A DNA stretch of 9,544 bases, taken from the IMG/VR virus record IMGVR_UViG_2684622619_000007; one strand, 5' to 3'. Below the pieces are notes generated by a model. The model ran no database searches, was not told the DNA's origin, and saw nothing but the letters and a program-made list of their open reading frames with translations. Below, piece by piece: positions 1 through 9,544 of the stretch (the stretch's first letter is position 1; each line of letters starts with the position of its first letter). The translations under genes and the position numbers were made by a program. The stretch comes from a virus (Duplodnaviria > Heunggongvirae > Uroviricota > Caudoviricetes).

Positions 1-114
1 ATGATCTGGCAGCCTGAGTTCACAGATAAAACACTCTCCAGGAAACCCGGGGCGGTTCAAACTATGTCCGCAGCCCTGACAGGGAAACTCCTCTGCGGGA
101 GTGTCCGGGAATAA
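1..114 (+). CDS. Possible 3' end of a gene entering from the left edge (partial; reads MIWQPEFTDKTLSRKPGAVQTMSAALTGKLLCGSVRE then stop)
   Basis: Frame 1 is open from the window edge to TAA at 112-114. Composition is ordinary, unlike the AT-rich block downstream. No start context can be judged because the 5' part is outside the window. Not in the ORF track. Confidence 0.25.
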   Translation: MIWQPEFTDKTLSRKPGAVQTMSAALTGKLLCGSVRE

Positions 115-205
115 TTAATAACGATGCACACAGGGTTTAGCGCGTACACGTATTGCATTATGCCAACGCCCCGGTGCTGACACGGAAGAAACCGGACGTG
201 ATGAT

Positions 206-739
206 TTAGCGTGGAAAGATTTGTGTAGTGTTCTGAATGCTCTCAGTAAATAGTAATGAATTATCAAAGGCATAGTAATATCTTTTATGTTCGTGGATAT
301 TTGTAACCCATCGGAAAACTCCTGCTTTAGCAAGATTTTCCCTGTATTGCTGAAATGTGATTTCTCTTGATTTCAACCTATCATAGGACGTTTCTATAAG
401 ATGCGTATTTCTTGAGAATTTAACATTCACAACCTTTTTAAGTCCTTTTATTAACACAGTGTTATCGTTTTCTAACACAATGTGAATATTATCTGTGGCT
501 AGATAGTAAATATAATGTGAGACATTGTGACGTTTTAGTTCAGAATAAAACAATTCACAGTTTAAATCTTTTCGCACTTGATCGAATATTTCTTTAAAAA
601 TGGCAACCTGAGCCATTGGTAAAACCTTCCATGTGATACGAGGGCGCGTAGTTTGCATTATCGTTTTTATCGTTTCAATCTGGTCTGACCTCTTTGTGTT
701 TTGTTGATGATTTATGTCAAATATTAGGAATGTTTTCAA
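206..739 (-). CDS. Hypothetical protein, 177 aa, AT-rich right-arm accessory ORF of unknown function
   Basis: 534-nt ORF on the minus strand. The track's start is a TTG at 737-739 with no obvious Shine-Dalgarno; an AAAGAGGT motif lies further in, 8 nt before an in-frame ATT and about 30 nt before the first in-frame ATG (MQTTRPR...), so the true start is uncertain. I do not recognise a domain. Confidence 0.55.
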
Positions 740-901
740 TTAATAGTATTGGTTGCGTAACAAAGTGCGGTCCTGCTGGCATTCTGGAGGGAAATACAAC
801 CGACAGATGTATGTAAGGCCAACGTGCTCAAATCTTCATACAGAAAGATTTGAAGTAATATTTTAACCGCTAGATGAAGAGCAAGCGCATGGAGCGACAA
901 A

Positions 902-1108
902 ATGAATAAAGAACAATCTGCTGATGATCCCTCCGTGGATCTGATTCGTGTAAAAAATATGCTTAATAGCACCATTTCTATGAGTTACCCTGATGTTGTA
1001 ATTGCATGTATAGAACATAAGGTGTCTCTGGAAGCATTCAGGGCAATTGAGGCAGCGTTGGTGAAGCACGATAATAATATGAAGGATTATTCCCTGGTGG
1101 TTGACTGA
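902..1108 (+). CDS. Small hypothetical protein, 68 aa, divergent from the 177-aa ORF
   Basis: ATG at 902 preceded by GGAG at 891-894 (7-nt spacer). The protein has a balanced, charged composition, whereas the overlapping minus-strand alternatives (736-975, 863-1069) are Cys-rich and implausible. Confidence 0.5.
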
Positions 1109-1272
1109 TCACCATAACTGCTAATCATTCAAACTACTTAACCTGTGACAGAGCCAACACGCAGTCTGTCACTGTCAGGAAAGTGGTAAAACTGCAACTC
1201 AATTACTGCAATGCCCTCGTAATTAAGTGAATTTACAATATCGTCCTGTTCGGAGGGAAGAACGCGGGATGT

Positions 1273-1567
1273 TCATTCTTCATCACTTTTAATTGATGTA
1301 TATGCTCTCTTTTCTGACGTTAGCCTCCGACGGCAGGCTTCAATGACCCAGGCTGAGAAATTTCCGGACCCTTTTTGATCAAGAGCGATGTTAATTTGTT
1401 CAATCATTTGGTTAGGAAAGCGGATGTTGCGGGTTGTNNNNNNNNNNNNNNNNNNNNNNNNNNNNNNNNNNNNNNNNNNNNNNNNNNATGTTAATTTGTT
1501 CAATCATCTGGTTTGGAAATCGGATGTTGCGGGTTGTTGTTCTGCGGGTTCTGTTCTTTGATGACAT
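1273..1567 (-). CDS. Small ribbon-helix-helix (Arc/CopG-like) DNA-binding protein, interrupted by an assembly gap; about 64 aa if the gap and duplicated flank are removed
   Basis: Minus-strand ATG at 1565-1567 reads MSSKNRTRRTTTRNIRFPNQMIEQIN, runs into the N-run, and resumes in frame to TGA at 1273-1275 (...IALDQKGSGNFSAWVIEACRRRLTSEKRAYTSIKSDEE). The N-I-R-F-P ... G-S-G-N-F-S-A-W-V-I-E-A pattern resembles the beta-strand/helix-turn-helix-pair signature of P22 Arc (NLRWPREVLDLVRKVAEENGRSVNSEIYQRV). Confidence 0.55.
1388..1537. repeat. Imperfect 50-bp direct repeat (1388-1437 and 1488-1537; 47/50 identical) flanking a run of 50 N
   Basis: Copy 1: atgttaatttgttcaatcatTtggttAggaaaGcggatgttgcgggttgt. 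Copy 2 is identical except C, T, T at the capitalised positions. The N-run separates them exactly. Confidence 0.9.
1438..1487. other. Run of 50 N: assembly or scaffold gap
   Basis: Fifty consecutive n characters in the sequence. Confidence 0.98.
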
Positions 1568-1766
1568 AATGTTGCCCCATATTCAGTGTTGCTGATTTGT
1601 ATTATCTGAAGTTGCTTTTACGTTAATTTGATGCAGATCAATTAATACGATACCTGCGTCATAATTGATTATTTGACGTGGTTTGATGGCGTAGATGCAC
1701 GTTGTGACATGTAGATGATAATTATTATCATTTTGCGGGTCCTTTCCGGCGATCCGACCGGTTACG

Positions 1767-1778
1767 GGGCGGCGACCT
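1767..1778 (+). other. cosN: cosN cohesive-end sequence (12-nt GGGCGGCGACCT), found in the joined state
   Basis: GGGCGGCGACCT is preceded by ...gatccgaccggttacg and followed by cgcgggttttcgctatttatgaaaattttccgg, which matches the lambda right-end/left-end junction as I recall it. A GATAAT-T-ATTATC palindrome sits at 1717-1729, where the lambda cosQ region would be. Confidence 0.9.
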
Positions 1779-1817
1779 CGCGGGTTTTCGCTATTTATGA
1801 AAATTTTCCGGGGAAAA

Positions 1818-1829
1818 TCATGTCGGTAC
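1818..1829 (+). promoter_or_regulatory. cosB repeat 1 (R3-like position): TCATGTCGGTAC, candidate small-terminase binding site
   Basis: First of three copies of a TCATGTCGG(A/T) motif between cosN and nu1. It lies 52-63 nt from the cos left end, comparable to lambda R3. Confidence 0.55.
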
Positions 1830-1875
1830 TTCTCGAACATAACTATTTGTTTTTTCTAATATCGAATCCGTAAAG

Positions 1876-1886
1876 GTCCGACATGA
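1876..1886 (-). promoter_or_regulatory. cosB repeat 2 (R2-like position, inverted): reverse complement is TCATGTCGGAC
   Basis: GTCCGACATGA on the + strand. Its inverted orientation relative to repeats 1 and 3 mirrors the lambda R3/R2/R1 arrangement. Confidence 0.55.
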
Positions 1887-1917
1887 AAACGCCTGAAAAA
1901 GTCATTTTCGGGCACTT

Positions 1918-1928
1918 TCATGTCGGAC
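1918..1928 (+). promoter_or_regulatory. cosB repeat 3 (R1-like position): TCATGTCGGAC
   Basis: Third copy of the motif, 26 nt upstream of the nu1 ATG. Confidence 0.55.
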
Positions 1929-1953
1929 CCTGTATTTGTTGTGAGACTGTTTC

Positions 1954-2473
1954 ATGAAGGTTAATAAAAAGAAACTTGCCGAAATTTTCAACGTGGATCC
2001 GCGAACGATTGAACGCTGGCAGTCTCAGGGGCTCCCTTGCGTCTCCGGAGGTGGTAAGGGCGTTGAATCTGTATTTGATACCGCCACGGCAATTCAGTGG
2101 TATGCGCAGAGGGAAGCTGATATCGAAAATGAAAAACTCCGTAAAGAGGTTGAGGATTACAGGGCTGCCAGCGAGGCAGATCTCCAGCCTGGGACTATTG
2201 AGTACGAACGCCATCGACTTACGCGTGCGCAGGCTGACGCCCAGGAGCTGAAGAATGCCAGAGACTCCGCAGAAGTGGTGGAAACCGCATTCTGTACTTT
2301 CGTGCTGTCACGGATCGCAGGTGAAATTGCCAGTATTCTTGACGGGATCCCTCTCTCAGTACAGCGGCGTTTTCCGGAACTGGAAAACCGACATGTTGAT
2401 TTCCTGAAACGGGATATTATCAAAGCCATGAACAAAGCAGCCGCGCTGGATGAACTGATACCGGGGTTGCTGA

Positions 2474-2499
<26 letters not shown>
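1954..2499 (+). CDS. nu1: Terminase small subunit (Nu1-like), 181 aa, mosaic: N-terminal third differs from lambda Nu1, remainder lambda-like
   Basis: ATG at 1954, TGA at 2497-2499. The C-terminal two thirds ([54 protein letters not shown]...LSEYIEQS) match lambda Nu1 as I recall it. The N-terminal region ([41 protein letters not shown]...) is related but clearly different; the GGGKG motif is retained. First gene after cos, 3' end overlaps A. Confidence 0.93.
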
Positions 2500-6180
<3,681 letters not shown>

Positions 6181-6200
<20 letters not shown>

Positions 6201-7500
6201 TCTCCCGCATATTGCCAGCATGGCTTTTAATGAGCCGCTGATGCTTGAACCCGCCTATGCGCGGGTTTTCTTTTGTGCGCTTGCAGGCCAGCTTGGGATC
6301 AGCCGCCTGACGGATGCAGTATCCGGCGACAGCCTGACTGCCGGAGAGGCACCCGCGGCGCTGGCGTTATCCGGTGATGATGACGGACCACGACAGGCCC
6401 GGAGTTATCAGGTCATGAACGGCATCGCCGTGCTGCCGGTGTCCGGTACGCTGGTCAGCCGGACGCGGGCGCTGCAGCCGTATTCGGGAATGACCGGTTA
6501 CAACGGCATTATCGCCCGTCTGCAACAGGCTGCCAGCGATCCGATGGTGGACGGCATTCTGCTCGATATGGACACACCGGGCGGGATGGTGGCGGGAGCA
6601 TTTGACTGTGCTGACATCATCGCCCGTGTGCGAGACATAAAACCGGTATGGGCGCTGGCCAACGACATGAACTGCAGTGCAGGTCAGCTGCTTGCCAGCG
6701 CCGCCTCCCGGCGTCTGGTCACGCAGACCGCCCGGACAGGCTCCATCGGCGTCATGATGGCTCACAGTAATTACGGTGCTGCCCTGGAGAAACAGGGCGT
6801 GGAAATCACGCTGATTTACAGCGGCAGCCATAAGGTGGATGGCAACCCCTACAGCCATCTACCGGGTGATGTCCGGGAAACACTGCAGTCCCGGATGGAT
6901 GCAACCCGCCGGATGTTTGCGCAGAAGGTGTCGGCATATACCGGCCTGTCCGTGCAGGCTGTGCTGGATACCGAGGCTGCAGTGTACAGCGGTCAGGAGG
7001 CCATTGATGCCGGACTGGCTGATGAACTTGTCAACAGCACCGATGCGATCACCGTTATGCGTGATGCACTGGATGCACGTAAATCCCGTCTCTCAGGAGG
7101 GCGAATGACCAAAGAGACTCAATCAACAACTGTTTCAGCCACTGCTTCGCAGGCTGACGTTACTGGCGTGGTGCCAGCGACGGAGGGCGAAAACGCCAGC
7201 GCGGCGCAGCCGGACGTGAACGCGCAGATCACCGCTGCGGTTGCGGCAGAAAACAGCCGCATTATGGGGATCCTCAACTGTGAGGAGGCTCACGGACGCG
7301 AAGAACAGGCCCGCGTGCTGGCAGAAACCCCCGGTATGACCGTGGAAACGGCCCGCCGCATTCTGGCCGCAGCACCACAGAGTGCACAGGCGCGCAGTGA
7401 TACTGCGCTGGATCGTCTGATGCAGGGGGCACCGGCACCGCTGGCTGCAGGTAACCCGGCATCTGATGCCGTTAACGATTTGCTGAACACACCAGTGTAA
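6181..7500 (+). CDS. C: Head maturation protease / minor capsid protein gpC (S49-type serine peptidase family), 439 aa
   Basis: GTG at 6181 preceded by GGAGG at 6170-6174 (6-nt spacer), overlapping the B 3' end by 20 nt. Begins (V/M)TAELRNLPHIASMAFNEPLMLEPAYARVFF, matching the lambda gpC N-terminus as I recall it. The track's longer ORF from 6046 is only an upstream in-frame extension. Confidence 0.93.
6895..7500 (+). CDS. nu3: Scaffolding protein Nu3, nested in frame within the 3' third of C (about 201 aa)
   Basis: In lambda, nu3 is translated from an internal in-frame start in C and shares its stop. The in-frame ATG at 6895 (MDATRRMFAQKVSAY...) is at the expected distance from the C start. 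No strong Shine-Dalgarno is visible, so the exact start is uncertain. Confidence 0.6.
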   Translation: MDATRRMFAQKVSAYTGLSVQAVLDTEAAVYSGQEAIDAGLADELVNSTDAITVMRDALDARKSRLSGGRMTKETQSTTVSATASQADVTGVVPATEGENASAAQPDVNAQITAAVAAENSRIMGILNCEEAHGREEQARVLAETPGMTVETARRILAAAPQSAQARSDTALDRLMQGAPAPLAAGNPASDAVNDLLNTPV

Positions 7501-7509
7501 GGGATGTTT

Positions 7510-7842
7510 ATGACGAGCAAAGAAACCTTTACCCATTACCAGCCGCTGGGCAACAGTGACCCGGCTCATACCGCAACCGCGCCCGGCGGATTGAGTGCGA
7601 AAGCGCCTGCAATGACCCCGCTGATGCTGGACACCTCCAGCCGTAAGCTGGTTGCGTGGGATGGCACCACCGACGGTGCTGCCGTTGGCATTCTTGCGGT
7701 TGCTGCTGACCAGACCAGCACCACGCTGACGTTCTACAAGTCCGGCACGTTCCGTTATGAGGATGTGCTCTGGCCGGAGGCTGCCAGCGACGAGACGAAA
7801 AAACGGACCGCGTTTGCCGGAACGGCAATCAGCATCGTTTAA
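7510..7842 (+). CDS. D: Head decoration protein gpD, 110 aa
   Basis: ATG at 7510 preceded by AAGGGA (5-nt spacer). [27 protein letters not shown]... matches lambda gpD as I recall it. The ATG at 7504 used by the track would add two residues and overlaps the Shine-Dalgarno. Confidence 0.95.
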
Positions 7843-7860
7843 CCTGACCCTTCATCACTA

Positions 7861-7884
7861 AAGGCCGCCTGTGCGGCTTTTTTT
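7861..7884 (+). terminator. Terminator-like hairpin in the D-E intergenic region: 8-bp stem (one G-U pair), CUGU loop, then a T-run
   Basis: aaggccgc-ctgt-gcggcttt followed by tttt at 7881-7884, then acgggattttttt and the E start. Located inside the late operon. Confidence 0.4.
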
Positions 7885-7897
7885 ACGGGATTTTTTT

Positions 7898-8923
7898 ATG
7901 TCGATGTACACAACCGCCCAACTGCTGGCGGCAAATGAGCAGAAATTTAAGTTTGATCCGCTGTTTCTGCGTCTCTTTTTCCGTGAGAGCTATCCCTTCA
8001 CCACGGAGAAAGTCTATCTCTCACAAATTCCGGGACTGGTAAACATGGCGCTGTACGTTTCGCCGATTGTTTCTGGTGAGGTTATCCGTTCCCGTGGCGG
8101 CTCCACCTCTGAATTTACGCCGGGATATGTCAAGCCGAAGCATGAAGTGAATCCGCAGATGACCCTGCGTCGCCTGCCGGATGAAGATCCGCAGAATCTG
8201 GCGGACCCGGCTTACCGCCGCCGTCGCATCATCATGCAGAACATGCGTGACGAAGAGCTGGCCATTGCTCAGGTCGAAGAGATGCAGGCAGTTTCTGCCG
8301 TGCTCAAGGGCAAATACACCATGACCGGTGAAGCCTTCGATCCGGTTGAGGTGGATATGGGCCGCAGTGCGGCGAACAACATCACGCAGTCCGGCGGCAC
8401 GGAGTGGAGCAAGCGTGACAAGTCCACGTATGACCCGACCGACGATATCGAAGCCTACGCGCTGAACGCCAGCGGCGTGGTGAATATCATCGTGTTTGAC
8501 CCGAAAGGCTGGGCGCTGTTCCGTTCCTTCAAAGCCGTCAGGGAGAAGCTGGATACCCGTCGCGGCTCTCATTCCGAACTGGAGACAGCGGTAAAAGACC
8601 TGGGCAAAGCGGTGTCTTATAAGGGAATGTATGGCGATGTGGCCATCGTCGTGTATTCCGGACAGTACGTGGAAAACGGCGTCAAAAAGAACTTCCTGCC
8701 GGACAACACGATGGTGCTGGGGAACACTCAGGCACGCGGTCTGCGCACCTATGGCTGCATTCAGGATGCGGACGCACAGCGCGAAGGCATTAACGCCTCT
8801 GCCCGTTACCCGAAAAACTGGGTGACCACCGGCGATCCGGCGCGTGAGTTCACCATGATTCAGTCAGCACCGCTGATGCTGCTGGCTGACCCTGATGAGT
8901 TCGTGTCCGTACAACTGGCGTAA
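7898..8923 (+). CDS. E: Major capsid protein gpE, 341 aa
   Basis: ATG at 7898 (MSMYTTAQLLAANEQKFKFDPLFLRLFF...), 341 aa ending ...DEFVSVQLA, matching lambda gpE as I recall it. The track's GTG at 7871 is an upstream extension lying inside the hairpin. Confidence 0.97.
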   Translation: MSMYTTAQLLAANEQKFKFDPLFLRLFFRESYPFTTEKVYLSQIPGLVNMALYVSPIVSGEVIRSRGGSTSEFTPGYVKPKHEVNPQMTLRRLPDEDPQNLADPAYRRRRIIMQNMRDEELAIAQVEEMQAVSAVLKGKYTMTGEAFDPVEVDMGRSAANNITQSGGTEWSKRDKSTYDPTDDIEAYALNASGVVNIIVFDPKGWALFRSFKAVREKLDTRRGSHSELETAVKDLGKAVSYKGMYGDVAIVVYSGQYVENGVKKNFLPDNTMVLGNTQARGLRTYGCIQDADAQREGINASARYPKNWVTTGDPAREFTMIQSAPLMLLADPDEFVSVQLA

Positions 8924-8925
8924 TC

Positions 8926-8950
8926 ATGGCCCTTCGGGGCCATTGTTTTT
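8926..8950 (+). terminator. Hairpin with a UUCG tetraloop in the E-FI intergenic region: 7-bp stem plus a U-rich tail
   Basis: atggccc-ttcg-gggccat at 8926-8943, followed by tgttttt at 8944-8950, immediately after the E stop. Confidence 0.4.
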
Positions 8951-8964
8951 CTGTGGAGGAGTCC

Positions 8965-9363
8965 ATGACGAAAGATGAACTGATTGCCCGTCTCCGCTCG
9001 CTGGGTGAACAACTGAACCGTGATGTCAGCCTGACGGGGACGAAAGAAGAACTGGCGCTCCGTGTGGCAGAGCTGGAAGAGGAGCTTGATGACACGGATG
9101 AAACTGCCGGTCAGGACACCCCTCTCAGCCGGGAAAATGTGCTGACCGGACATGAAAATGAGGTGGGATCAGCGCAGCCGGATACCGTGATTCTGGATAC
9201 GTCTGAACTGGTCACGGTCGTGGCACTGGTGAAGCTGCATACTGATGCACTTCACGTCACGCGGGATGAACCTGTGGCATTTGTGCTGCCGGGAACGGCG
9301 TTTCGTGTCTCTGCCGGTGTGGCAGCCGAAATGACAGAGCGCGGCCTGGCCAGAATGCAATAA
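8965..9363 (+). CDS. FI: DNA-packaging / head assembly protein gpFI, 132 aa
   Basis: ATG at 8965 preceded by GGAGGAG. MTKDELIARLRSLGEQLNRDVSLTGTKEELALRVAEL... matches lambda gpFI as I recall it. TAA at 9361-9363. Confidence 0.93.
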   Translation: MTKDELIARLRSLGEQLNRDVSLTGTKEELALRVAELEEELDDTDETAGQDTPLSRENVLTGHENEVGSAQPDTVILDTSELVTVVALVKLHTDALHVTRDEPVAFVLPGTAFRVSAGVAAEMTERGLARMQ

Positions 9364-9374
9364 CGGGAGGCGCT

Positions 9375-9544
9375 GTGGCTGATTTCGATAACCTGTTCGA
9401 TGCTGCCATTGCCCGCGCCGATGAAACGATACGCGGGTACATGGGAACGTCAGCCACCATGACATCCGGTGAGCAGTCCGGCGCAGTAATACGTGGTGTT
9501 TTTGATGACCCTGAAAATATCAGCTATGCCGGACAGGGCGTGCG
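9375..9544 (+). CDS. FII: Head-tail connector protein gpFII (5' part only; truncated by the window end)
   Basis: GTG at 9375 preceded by GGGAGG at 9365-9370. Translation (V/M)ADFDNLFDAAIARADETIRGYMGTSATMTSGEQSGAVIRGVFDDPENISYAGQGV matches the lambda gpFII N-terminus as I recall it. Not in the ORF track because it has a GTG start and no stop. Confidence 0.85.
   Translation, partial: MADFDNLFDAAIARADETIRGYMGTSATMTSGEQSGAVIRGVFDDPENISYAGQGV

What the first reader, a model, noticed from the sequence alone, without database searches (positions are those of the whole stretch)
1388..1537. 50-N gap flanked by a near-identical 50-bp direct repeat: likely unmerged contig overlap that adds ~100 nt and breaks a small ORF
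The 50 nt before and after the N-run are the same sequence with three substitutions. Removing one copy plus the Ns restores a clean 64-aa minus-strand ORF, so the run looks like a scaffolding artefact in which overlapping contig ends were not collapsed. The three mismatches are notable: they could be low-quality contig ends, or reads from two related prophages in the same genome meeting here.
Basis: seen in the sequence. Interest (0 to 1): 0.4.

Follow-up and report, generated by a model that had tools for sequence, protein, structure and literature searches.

The report
Scaffold gap joining two prophage copies
The 50-N run is an assembly placeholder inside a small phage gene, and its near-identical flanks are the ends of contigs from two different related prophages of E. 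coli O157:H7, so it is a draft-assembly artefact and not a biological repeat.

Summary
Positions 1388-1437 and 1488-1537 match at 47 of 50 bases around exactly 50 Ns. Removing one copy plus the Ns gives a 64-aa minus-strand ORF, YlcI (Pfam DUF3950), about 200 nt upstream of a lambda-type cos site.

The flanks do not look like one locus sequenced twice. The left contig (1-1437: IS629 end, ybcV, ybcW, ylcI 3' part) is 100% identical to one O157:H7 prophage ("A"). The right contig starts 100% identical to a different prophage ("B": PerC, 74-aa ylcI, another cosB/nu1). In the closed genomes checked, the best matches for the two lie at least 150 kb apart.

The three mismatches are the fixed A and B haplotypes. 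All three are synonymous third-codon positions, so they are not read errors.

No closed E. coli genome (5,426) or phage record (50,697) holds the collapsed junction. The right contig is itself a mosaic of B and A alleles. The window starts 59 nt inside IS629 and ends one base before an A/B SNP, as expected of a short-read scaffold broken at repeats.

Two rare gap-free draft contigs do carry such a hybrid, so a true recombinant is not excluded (about 10%).

Verdict: artefact, low interest. Do not "repair" it by collapsing the copies.

The parts
1..1437 (.). Left contig: A-type lambdoid prophage late region.
   Evidence: 100% identical over its full length to at least 15 closed O157:H7 genomes, e.g. 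NZ_CP038416.1 3155069-3156505, and to IMG/VR contig L168. In all of these it continues into canonical A-type ylcI/cos/nohD.
1..59 (.). Terminal 59 nt of IS629/IS1203 (ends ...CGGTTCA at 59), inserted between bor and ybcV.
   Evidence: Bases 1-61 are 100% identical to the end of another IS1203 copy (L002). Bases 60-1437 are collinear with L001, which lacks the IS. L003 annotates an IS1203 transposase here.
206..616 (-). ybcV (DUF1398).
   Evidence: Pfam PF07166, E = 3e-46. Annotated ybcV in L003 at the equivalent place.
902..1108 (+). ybcW.
   Evidence: Annotated ybcW in L001 and L003 at the equivalent place.
1273..1437 (-). ylcI, codons 11-64 plus stop, A-type allele (end of left contig).
   Evidence: Translation. 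100% identical to the ylcI annotated in L003.
1388..1437 (.). Copy 1 of the 50-mer: A haplotype (T, A, G at 1408, 1414, 1420).
   Evidence: Exact in 6/6 canonical A loci.
1438..1487 (.). Run of 50 N: gap placeholder, not sequence.
   Evidence: It is the only N-run in the window. The loci aligned or haplotyped across this region each carry a single copy of the 50-mer, with no insert or duplication.
1488..1537 (.). Copy 2 of the 50-mer: B haplotype (C, T, T at 1508, 1514, 1520).
   Evidence: Exact in 17/17 canonical B loci.
1488..1567 (-). ylcI, codons 1-26 plus 2 nt of codon 27, B-type allele (ATG at 1567-1565); start of right contig.
   Evidence: Translation. 100% identical to the 74-aa YlcI/YnfO gene of L002 and L004.
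1488..9544 (.). Right contig: B-type ylcI 5' end, cos, nu1, A, W, B, C, D, E, FI, partial FII. It is a mosaic of B and A alleles.
   Evidence: It differs from the best closed B-type loci compared base by base (L006, L007) at only 4 of 8,057 bases. It carries B alleles at 210 sites (1508-2989), A alleles at 3064/3067, B alleles at 15 sites (3217-4135) and A alleles at 4584, 4824, 5285, 5288 and 9475. The base after 9544 is T in lineage-matched A and C in B.
1767..1778 (+). cosN cohesive-end sequence GGGCGGCGACCT.
   Evidence: Read directly. The identification with the lambda cohesive end rests on my own knowledge of lambda. The region matches the lambda right end through cos.
1805..1929 (.). 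B-type cosB-like region with repeated CATGTCGG-type motifs, including a 25-nt inverted repeat (1875-1899 / 1905-1929).
   Evidence: the repeat finder families D15 and I2. This stretch is only about 70% identical to the A-type, lambda-like cosB.
1954..2499 (+). nu1 (terminase small subunit), B type.
   Evidence: Pfam Phage_Nu1, E = 4e-91. Annotated in L004.
2474..4399 (+). Terminase large subunit (gpA).
   Evidence: 641-aa ORF. Annotated in L004.

Best explanation
The window is most likely a whole short-read scaffold from an E. coli O157:H7 draft genome. It consists of two contigs joined by a fixed 50-N placeholder. Both contigs stop inside ylcI, a small DUF3950 gene next to cos, because this is where several lambdoid prophages of the same genome become near-identical.

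The left contig is the unique late region of prophage A (bor, IS629, ybcV, ybcW, ylcI 3' end). The right contig starts as prophage B (ylcI 5' end, B-type cos, nu1, A). It then runs into head genes shared almost exactly by A, B and other prophages, where the assembler produced one collapsed or mosaic sequence.

The 50-bp 'direct repeat' is therefore codons 11-27 of two paralogous ylcI alleles placed side by side, not a duplication in the DNA. The three mismatches are true paralogue differences.

Shown: the identity of each flank, their separation in closed genomes, the allele pattern, and the repeat-boundary positions of the scaffold ends.

Inferred: the scaffolder linked A-left to this contig through read pairs landing in sequence shared by A and B. 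On this reading the genuine continuation of the left contig is the A-type ylcI/cos/nohD segment, which is absent from the window.
For: (1) Flank identity. Bases 600-1437 have matches of at least 99% in 907 closed records, and 1488-2400 in 322. Within the same genomes the best matches are different prophages, e.g. NZ_CP038416.1 at 3.155 Mb versus 3.001 Mb, and NZ_AP018488.1 at 1.504 Mb (+) versus 2.157 Mb (-).

(2) The collapsed junction (588 + 613 nt) has no full-length match above 95.3% in 5,426 closed E. coli genomes, and no match covering 80% or more in 50,697 phage records.

(3) Copy 1 is the A haplotype and copy 2 the B haplotype in every canonical locus (6/6 and 17/17). The three differences are 6 nt apart, all third-codon and synonymous. 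10 of the 12 A/B differences listed between 1345 and 1461 fall in that codon phase.

(4) A and B are homologous only from about 1333. They are about 70% identical across cosB and the start of nu1, and 100% identical from 4238 on, except at the few sites where the window carries the A allele.

(5) The right contig switches between B and A alleles three times, always within identical stretches of at least 74 nt. No B-type locus examined has its bases at 3064/3067.

(6) The window begins exactly 59 nt inside IS629 and ends one base before an A/B SNP.

(7) In public drafts the head-gene cluster sits mostly on 5-10 kb contigs and B-type ylcI on 2-5 kb contigs.

(8) Every sequence found with the same IS629 junction continues as canonical A (at least 15 closed genomes, read together; L168).

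(9) The literature states that short reads cannot resolve paralogous O157 prophage sequence (PMC5359411; PMC4132626).
Against: Two gap-free draft contigs span such a junction. L017 (ANME01000059.1) equals the 'keep copy 1' collapse at 100% over 60-1711. L014 (AASIDS010000062.1) is A-left plus copy 2 plus B-type sequence. Other natural recombinants around ylcI also exist (L011, L013, L016). A-left joined to B-right is therefore biologically possible.

The exact 50-nt overlap and the equal 50-N length are not explained by any fork in the haplotypes sampled.

No reads are available, so adjacency in the source strain cannot be tested directly. The source record and the assembler are unknown.
Confidence: 0.8

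Rival explanations
1. True overlap at one locus. The source strain, or a subpopulation of the culture, carries a genuine recombinant prophage in which the A-type late region is fused within ylcI to a B-type cos/terminase module. The contigs really do abut. The first 33 nt of the right contig (C-T-T haplotype) come from the other, intact B prophage that shares the downstream repeat.
For: Gap-free public contigs carry exactly such junctions (L017, L014). ylcI is a natural mosaic boundary with many recombinant haplotypes. The distal part of the right contig carries A alleles, as an A prophage with a B patch would. A scaffolder did link the two contigs.
Against: No closed genome of 5,426 and no phage record has the hybrid. 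All sequences with the same lineage-marking IS629 junction are canonical A. The hybrid YlcI protein is seen on 12 contigs, against at least 1,000 contigs (index: 10,167 blocks) for the normal one. The right contig would require an A|B|A|B|A mosaic with four crossovers. L017 and L014 could themselves be assembler chimeras.
Confidence: 0.1
2. A plain unmerged overlap of the same sequence, with the three mismatches being base-calling errors at low-quality contig ends.
For: The geometry fits (a 50-nt overlap with a 50-N filler), and the collapsed ORF is intact.
Against: Each version is an exact, widespread natural haplotype. All three sites are synonymous third positions spaced 6 nt apart. The sequence on either side of the gap belongs to different prophages.
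Confidence: 0.02
3. A genuine tandem duplication of 50 bp within ylcI, separated by about 50 nt of unsequenced DNA.
For: None beyond the layout of the record.
Against: The loci aligned or haplotyped across this region from closed genomes, drafts and IMG/VR each carry a single copy, with no insert or duplication. The two copies carry haplotypes of two different prophages. The N-run is a round number equal to the overlap.
Confidence: 0.01

Closest known systems
False duplications or unmerged overlaps at scaffold gap edges in draft assemblies
   Same: A fixed-length N-run is flanked by the same stretch of sequence twice. It inflates the length by about 100 nt and breaks an ORF. It disappears in finished genomes.
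   Different: The two flanks are not two readings of one locus. They are alleles of two paralogous prophages, so merging them would create a chimera rather than the true sequence.
Collapsed or chimeric lambdoid-prophage repeats in short-read assemblies of E. coli O157:H7 (PMC5359411; PMC4132626)
   Same: Multiple lambda-like prophages share kilobases of near-identical packaging and head genes. Contigs break at IS629 copies and at prophage homology boundaries. The head-gene cluster usually ends up on one 5-10 kb contig.
   Different: Nothing essential differs. This window is a concrete instance in which the break falls inside ylcI and the scaffolder bridged it.
ylcI of the DLP12 prophage and the lambda right end (YlcI/YnfO family, Pfam DUF3950)
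   Same: A 64-aa minus-strand ORF lies between ybcW and cos. There is a Pfam DUF3950 hit, and the same gene order is annotated in closed genomes. The lambda right end matches at 97%.
   Different: In the window the gene is split by the gap and assembled from two alleles. Its function is unknown, and no solved structure is detectable by sequence.

Membership tests
Scaffold gap with unmerged overlap of one locus | An N-run of arbitrary round length lies between two contig ends. | tested here: met
   Exactly 50 N, the only N-run in the window.
Scaffold gap with unmerged overlap of one locus | Both flanks derive from the same genomic locus, so the collapsed sequence should exist in finished relatives. 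| tested here: not met
   The flanks map to different prophages at least 150 kb apart. The collapsed junction is absent from 5,426 closed genomes and 50,697 phage records.
Scaffold gap with unmerged overlap of one locus | Differences between the copies are random errors. | tested here: not met
   All three are fixed paralogue alleles and are synonymous third positions.
Scaffold join across paralogous repeats (chimeric or collapsed) | Each flank is identical to a different repeat copy in finished genomes of the same lineage. | tested here: met
   The left contig is 100% A. The right contig matches B exactly over 1488-2400 and, over all 8,057 bases, differs from the best B loci compared (L006, L007) at 4 bases.
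Scaffold join across paralogous repeats (chimeric or collapsed) | Contig ends coincide with repeat boundaries or forks. | tested here: inconclusive
   The outer ends fit: 59 nt into IS629, and 1 nt before an A/B SNP. The inner ends lie 59 and 61 nt from natural fork sites at 1378 and 1449, but no single k explains both.
Scaffold join across paralogous repeats (chimeric or collapsed) | Read depth is elevated on the repeat contig, and no reads link the two flanks. | not testable with these tools
   No reads are available.
YlcI/YnfO family (Pfam DUF3950) for the broken ORF | Profile match above the curated threshold. | tested here: met
   PF13132, 71.4 bits against a cut-off of 25.
YlcI/YnfO family (Pfam DUF3950) for the broken ORF | Conserved position between the lysis/bor/ybcVW region and cos/nu1 in lambdoid prophages, with a coding-type substitution pattern. 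| tested here: met
   Gene order. 10 of 12 A/B differences are at third codon positions.
Genuine tandem duplication | The duplication is present in gap-free relatives. | tested here: not met
   A single copy in every homologous locus examined.

The most novel reading that the evidence does not exclude
The source strain really carries a recombinant prophage. In it the DLP12/lambda-like late region (bor, ybcV, ybcW, ylcI 3' end) would be fused to a different cos/terminase specificity module, through a crossover in a 31-38 bp identity patch inside ylcI. That would make ylcI a recurrent module-exchange point immediately upstream of cos in O157:H7 prophages.
Probability: 0.1. Interest if true: 0.25.

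Novelty: not a real feature. Interest (0 to 1): 0.07.

Why it matters
The value is mainly data hygiene. The obvious repair, deleting one copy and the Ns, would give a tidy 64-aa ORF. It would also fabricate a prophage that joins the late genes of one element to the cos/terminase module of another, and a YlcI allele that normal O157:H7 strains do not have.

Prophage typing, SNP calling or packaging-specificity inference from this scaffold would be misleading from about 1388 to 4135. Downstream of that, the sequence is a consensus of several prophages.

Two minor biological by-products emerged. ylcI behaves as a real coding gene under purifying selection. It also sits on a mosaic boundary between lambdoid modules.

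Tried and rejected
(1) Looking for the source record. A pattern spanning the gap found nothing in IMG/VR. The IS629/ybcV junction found one contig, L168, which is gap-free and canonical A.

(2) The original EDL933 assembly as source. Its gap is 4,000 N, not 50.

(3) k = 51 de Bruijn overlap (k-1 = 50). Rejected because the overlap is inexact, and none of the haplotypes sampled has a variant at 1387/1388 or 1437/1438. A directed scan for a non-G at 1387 on the B haplotype found none.

(4) A single k of about 60. The start of the left contig and 1437 (= 1378 + 59) fit k-1 = 59, but 1388 (= 1449 - 61) needs 61. It is suggestive only. The 1378C paralogue I could locate is in O26/O103/O111 strains rather than O157. 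The fork-at-1449 paralogue (YlcI plus HNH endonuclease) does occur in some O157:H7 genomes.

(5) B-type paralogues diverging at the contig start. Rejected: five B-type loci from five closed genomes are identical for about 1.4 kb to the left of it.

(6) Treating the absence of the hybrid in closed genomes as proof. This was tempered after an exact-protein look-up found rare gap-free hybrids in drafts.

(7) A structure-by-sequence lead for YlcI. There was no meaningful PDB hit.

(8) Enumerating all paralogues of one closed O157 genome, to simulate the assembly graph and test majority-rule consensus at the mosaic sites. Not done, because the tools list only one place per record.

Full report
**1. 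Observation.**
The window has a single N-run, 1438-1487, of exactly 50 N. The 50 bases before it (1388-1437) and after it (1488-1537) match at 47/50. They differ at 1408/1508 (T/C), 1414/1514 (A/T) and 1420/1520 (G/T). With up to 3 mismatches the 50-mer occurs only at these two places, and none of 200 shuffles produced a match.

Deleting either copy plus the Ns gives the same 64-aa minus-strand ORF. That ORF hits Pfam DUF3950, the YlcI/YnfO family, at E = 5e-20.

**2. Context.**
The window is the late-gene, cos and head region of a lambda-like prophage of E. coli O157:H7. Its features, in order, are:
- the last 59 nt of an IS629/IS1203 copy (1-59)
- ybcV (206-616, minus strand)
- ybcW (902-1108, plus strand)
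- ylcI (1273-1567, minus strand, interrupted by the gap)
- the cohesive-end sequence GGGCGGCGACCT (1767-1778)
- nu1 (1954-2499), terminase A (2474-4399), W, portal B, C, D, E, FI and the start of FII

These assignments rest. The lambda right end matches bases 800-1811 at 97%.

**3. The two flanks belong to different prophages.**
- Bases 600-1437 match 907 closed E. coli records at 99% or better. Bases 1488-2400 match 322.
- Within the same genomes the best matches are far apart. In NZ_AP018488.1 they lie at 1.504 Mb (+) and 2.157 Mb (-). In NZ_CP038416.1 they lie at 3,155,069-3,156,505 and 2,993,107-3,001,163. The distance is about 151-156 kb in several other strains.
- Prophage "A" has bor, (IS629), ybcV, ybcW, a 64-aa ylcI, and lambda-like cosB/nohD.
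- Prophage "B" has an antirepressor, lysis genes, PerC, a 74-aa ylcI, and a different cosB/nu1.
- A and B are unrelated to the left of about 1333. They are 90-95% identical across ylcI and cos, about 70% identical over cosB and the start of nu1, and essentially identical from about 4238 onward.
- The collapsed junction (588 nt of left flank plus 613 nt of right flank) has no full-length match better than 95.3% in 5,426 closed genomes. It has no match covering 80% or more in 50,697 phage records.
- Every sequence I found with the same IS629/ybcV junction continues with canonical A sequence. That is at least 15 closed genomes and one IMG/VR contig.

**4. The three mismatches are paralogue alleles.**
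Copy 1 (T-A-G) is exact in 6/6 canonical A loci. Copy 2 (C-T-T) is exact in 17/17 canonical B loci. Both haplotypes are widespread in IMG/VR.

The three sites are 6 nt apart, and all are synonymous third-codon positions of ylcI. 10 of the 12 A/B differences listed between 1345 and 1461 fall in that codon phase. This is the signature of two diverged, selected alleles, not of read errors.

The protein obtained by collapsing has Ser3. The normal O157 A-type YlcI has Thr3. The Ser3 version is on 12 contigs in the protein collection, against at least 1,000 contigs (index: 10,167 blocks) for the normal one.

**5. The right contig is itself a repeat product.**
Relative to lineage-matched A (L003) and B (L004), it carries:
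- B alleles at 210 sites (1508-2989)
- A alleles at 3064/3067
- B alleles at 15 sites (3217-4135)
- A alleles at 4584, 4824, 5285, 5288 and 9475

No B-type locus examined has its bases at 3064/3067. The switches fall in A/B-identical stretches of 74, 149 and 448 nt.

The window ends at 9544. The next base is T in lineage-matched A and C in B. The window begins exactly 59 nt inside IS629. Both ends are what a de Bruijn-graph contig looks like at a repeat, so the 9,544-nt window is probably an entire scaffold.

In public drafts the head-gene cluster lies mostly on 5-10 kb contigs (24,988 index blocks) and B-type ylcI on 2-5 kb contigs. The literature says the same in general terms (PMC5359411; PMC4132626).

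**6. Most likely explanation (about 0.8).**
Two short-read contigs end inside ylcI, where several prophages converge. A scaffolder linked the unique A-left contig to the B/collapsed head contig. I infer that it did so through read pairs landing in shared sequence, and then wrote 50 N. The apparent direct repeat is codons 11-27 of two ylcI alleles set side by side. The true continuation of the left contig (A-type ylcI 5' end, cosA, nohD) is not in the window.

**7. Rivals.**
(a) A genuine recombinant (about 0.1).
- For it: an exact-protein look-up found gap-free draft contigs with hybrid junctions. L017 equals the 'keep copy 1' collapse at 100% over 60-1711. L014 is A-left plus copy 2 plus pure B. 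Other natural recombinant haplotypes exist around ylcI.
- Against it: the hybrid is absent from all closed genomes, the lineage-matched sequences are canonical A, and the window would need a four-crossover mosaic.

(b) Sequencing errors at contig ends (about 0.02). Contradicted by section 4.

(c) A real tandem duplication (about 0.01). No homologous locus examined shows one.

**8. Unexplained.**
I cannot say why the overlap is exactly 50 nt, or why it equals the length of the N-run. No variant exists at 1387/1388 or 1437/1438 in the haplotypes sampled.

Natural forks do exist at 1378 (the lambda-type allele) and at 1449 (a YlcI plus HNH-endonuclease paralogue present in some O157:H7 genomes). 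These give 1437 = 1378 + 59 and 1388 = 1449 - 61. That suggests k of about 60, but no single k fits both. The assembler and the source record remain unknown.

**9. Verdict.**
This is an assembly artefact and has no biological novelty. The proposed repair, collapsing the copies, should not be applied without read-level phasing.

Noticed in passing
window 1-59 (and L003 8804-10060): The window starts exactly 59 nt inside the end of an IS629/IS1203 copy inserted between bor and ybcV. This insertion is shared by a subset of closed O157:H7 genomes, so it marks the lineage of the source strain.
   Followed up: partly
window 9544 and the following base in L003, L004 and L001: The window ends one base before a site where the lineage-matched A prophage has T and the B prophages have C. 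This suggests that the window end is a contig end at an assembly-graph fork, and that both variants exist in the source.
   Followed up: partly
window 1488-9544: The right contig is a mosaic of B-type and A-type alleles (B, A, B, A along its length). Its bases at 3064/3067 occur in no B-type copy examined. This is consistent with a collapsed or majority consensus of several prophages, or with gene conversion.
   Followed up: partly
window about 1333 (inside ylcI): Homology between the two prophage types begins inside the 3' third of ylcI. The result is a 64-aa and a 74-aa YlcI with unrelated C-termini. Many recombinant haplotypes occur around this point, so ylcI sits on a mosaic module boundary next to cos.
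   Followed up: partly
window 1805-1929: The B-type region between cosN and nu1 carries three CATGTCGG-type motifs, including a 25-nt inverted repeat (1875-1899 / 1905-1929). It is only about 70% identical to the lambda-like cosB of prophage A. The two prophages probably have different terminase-binding (packaging specificity) modules.
   Followed up: no
L017 (ANME01000059.1) and L014 (AASIDS010000062.1): Two public draft contigs span the ylcI junction without a gap, as A-left/B-right hybrids with different crossover points. They are either rare real recombinants in O157-like strains or assembler chimeras.
   Followed up: partly
L085, L070 and L083; closed genomes: A third ylcI paralogue type is followed by an HNH endonuclease (a different packaging module). 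It shares the B haplotype over equivalent positions 1381-1448 and then diverges at 1449. It is present at 100% identity in some O157:H7, O103 and O111 genomes.
   Followed up: partly
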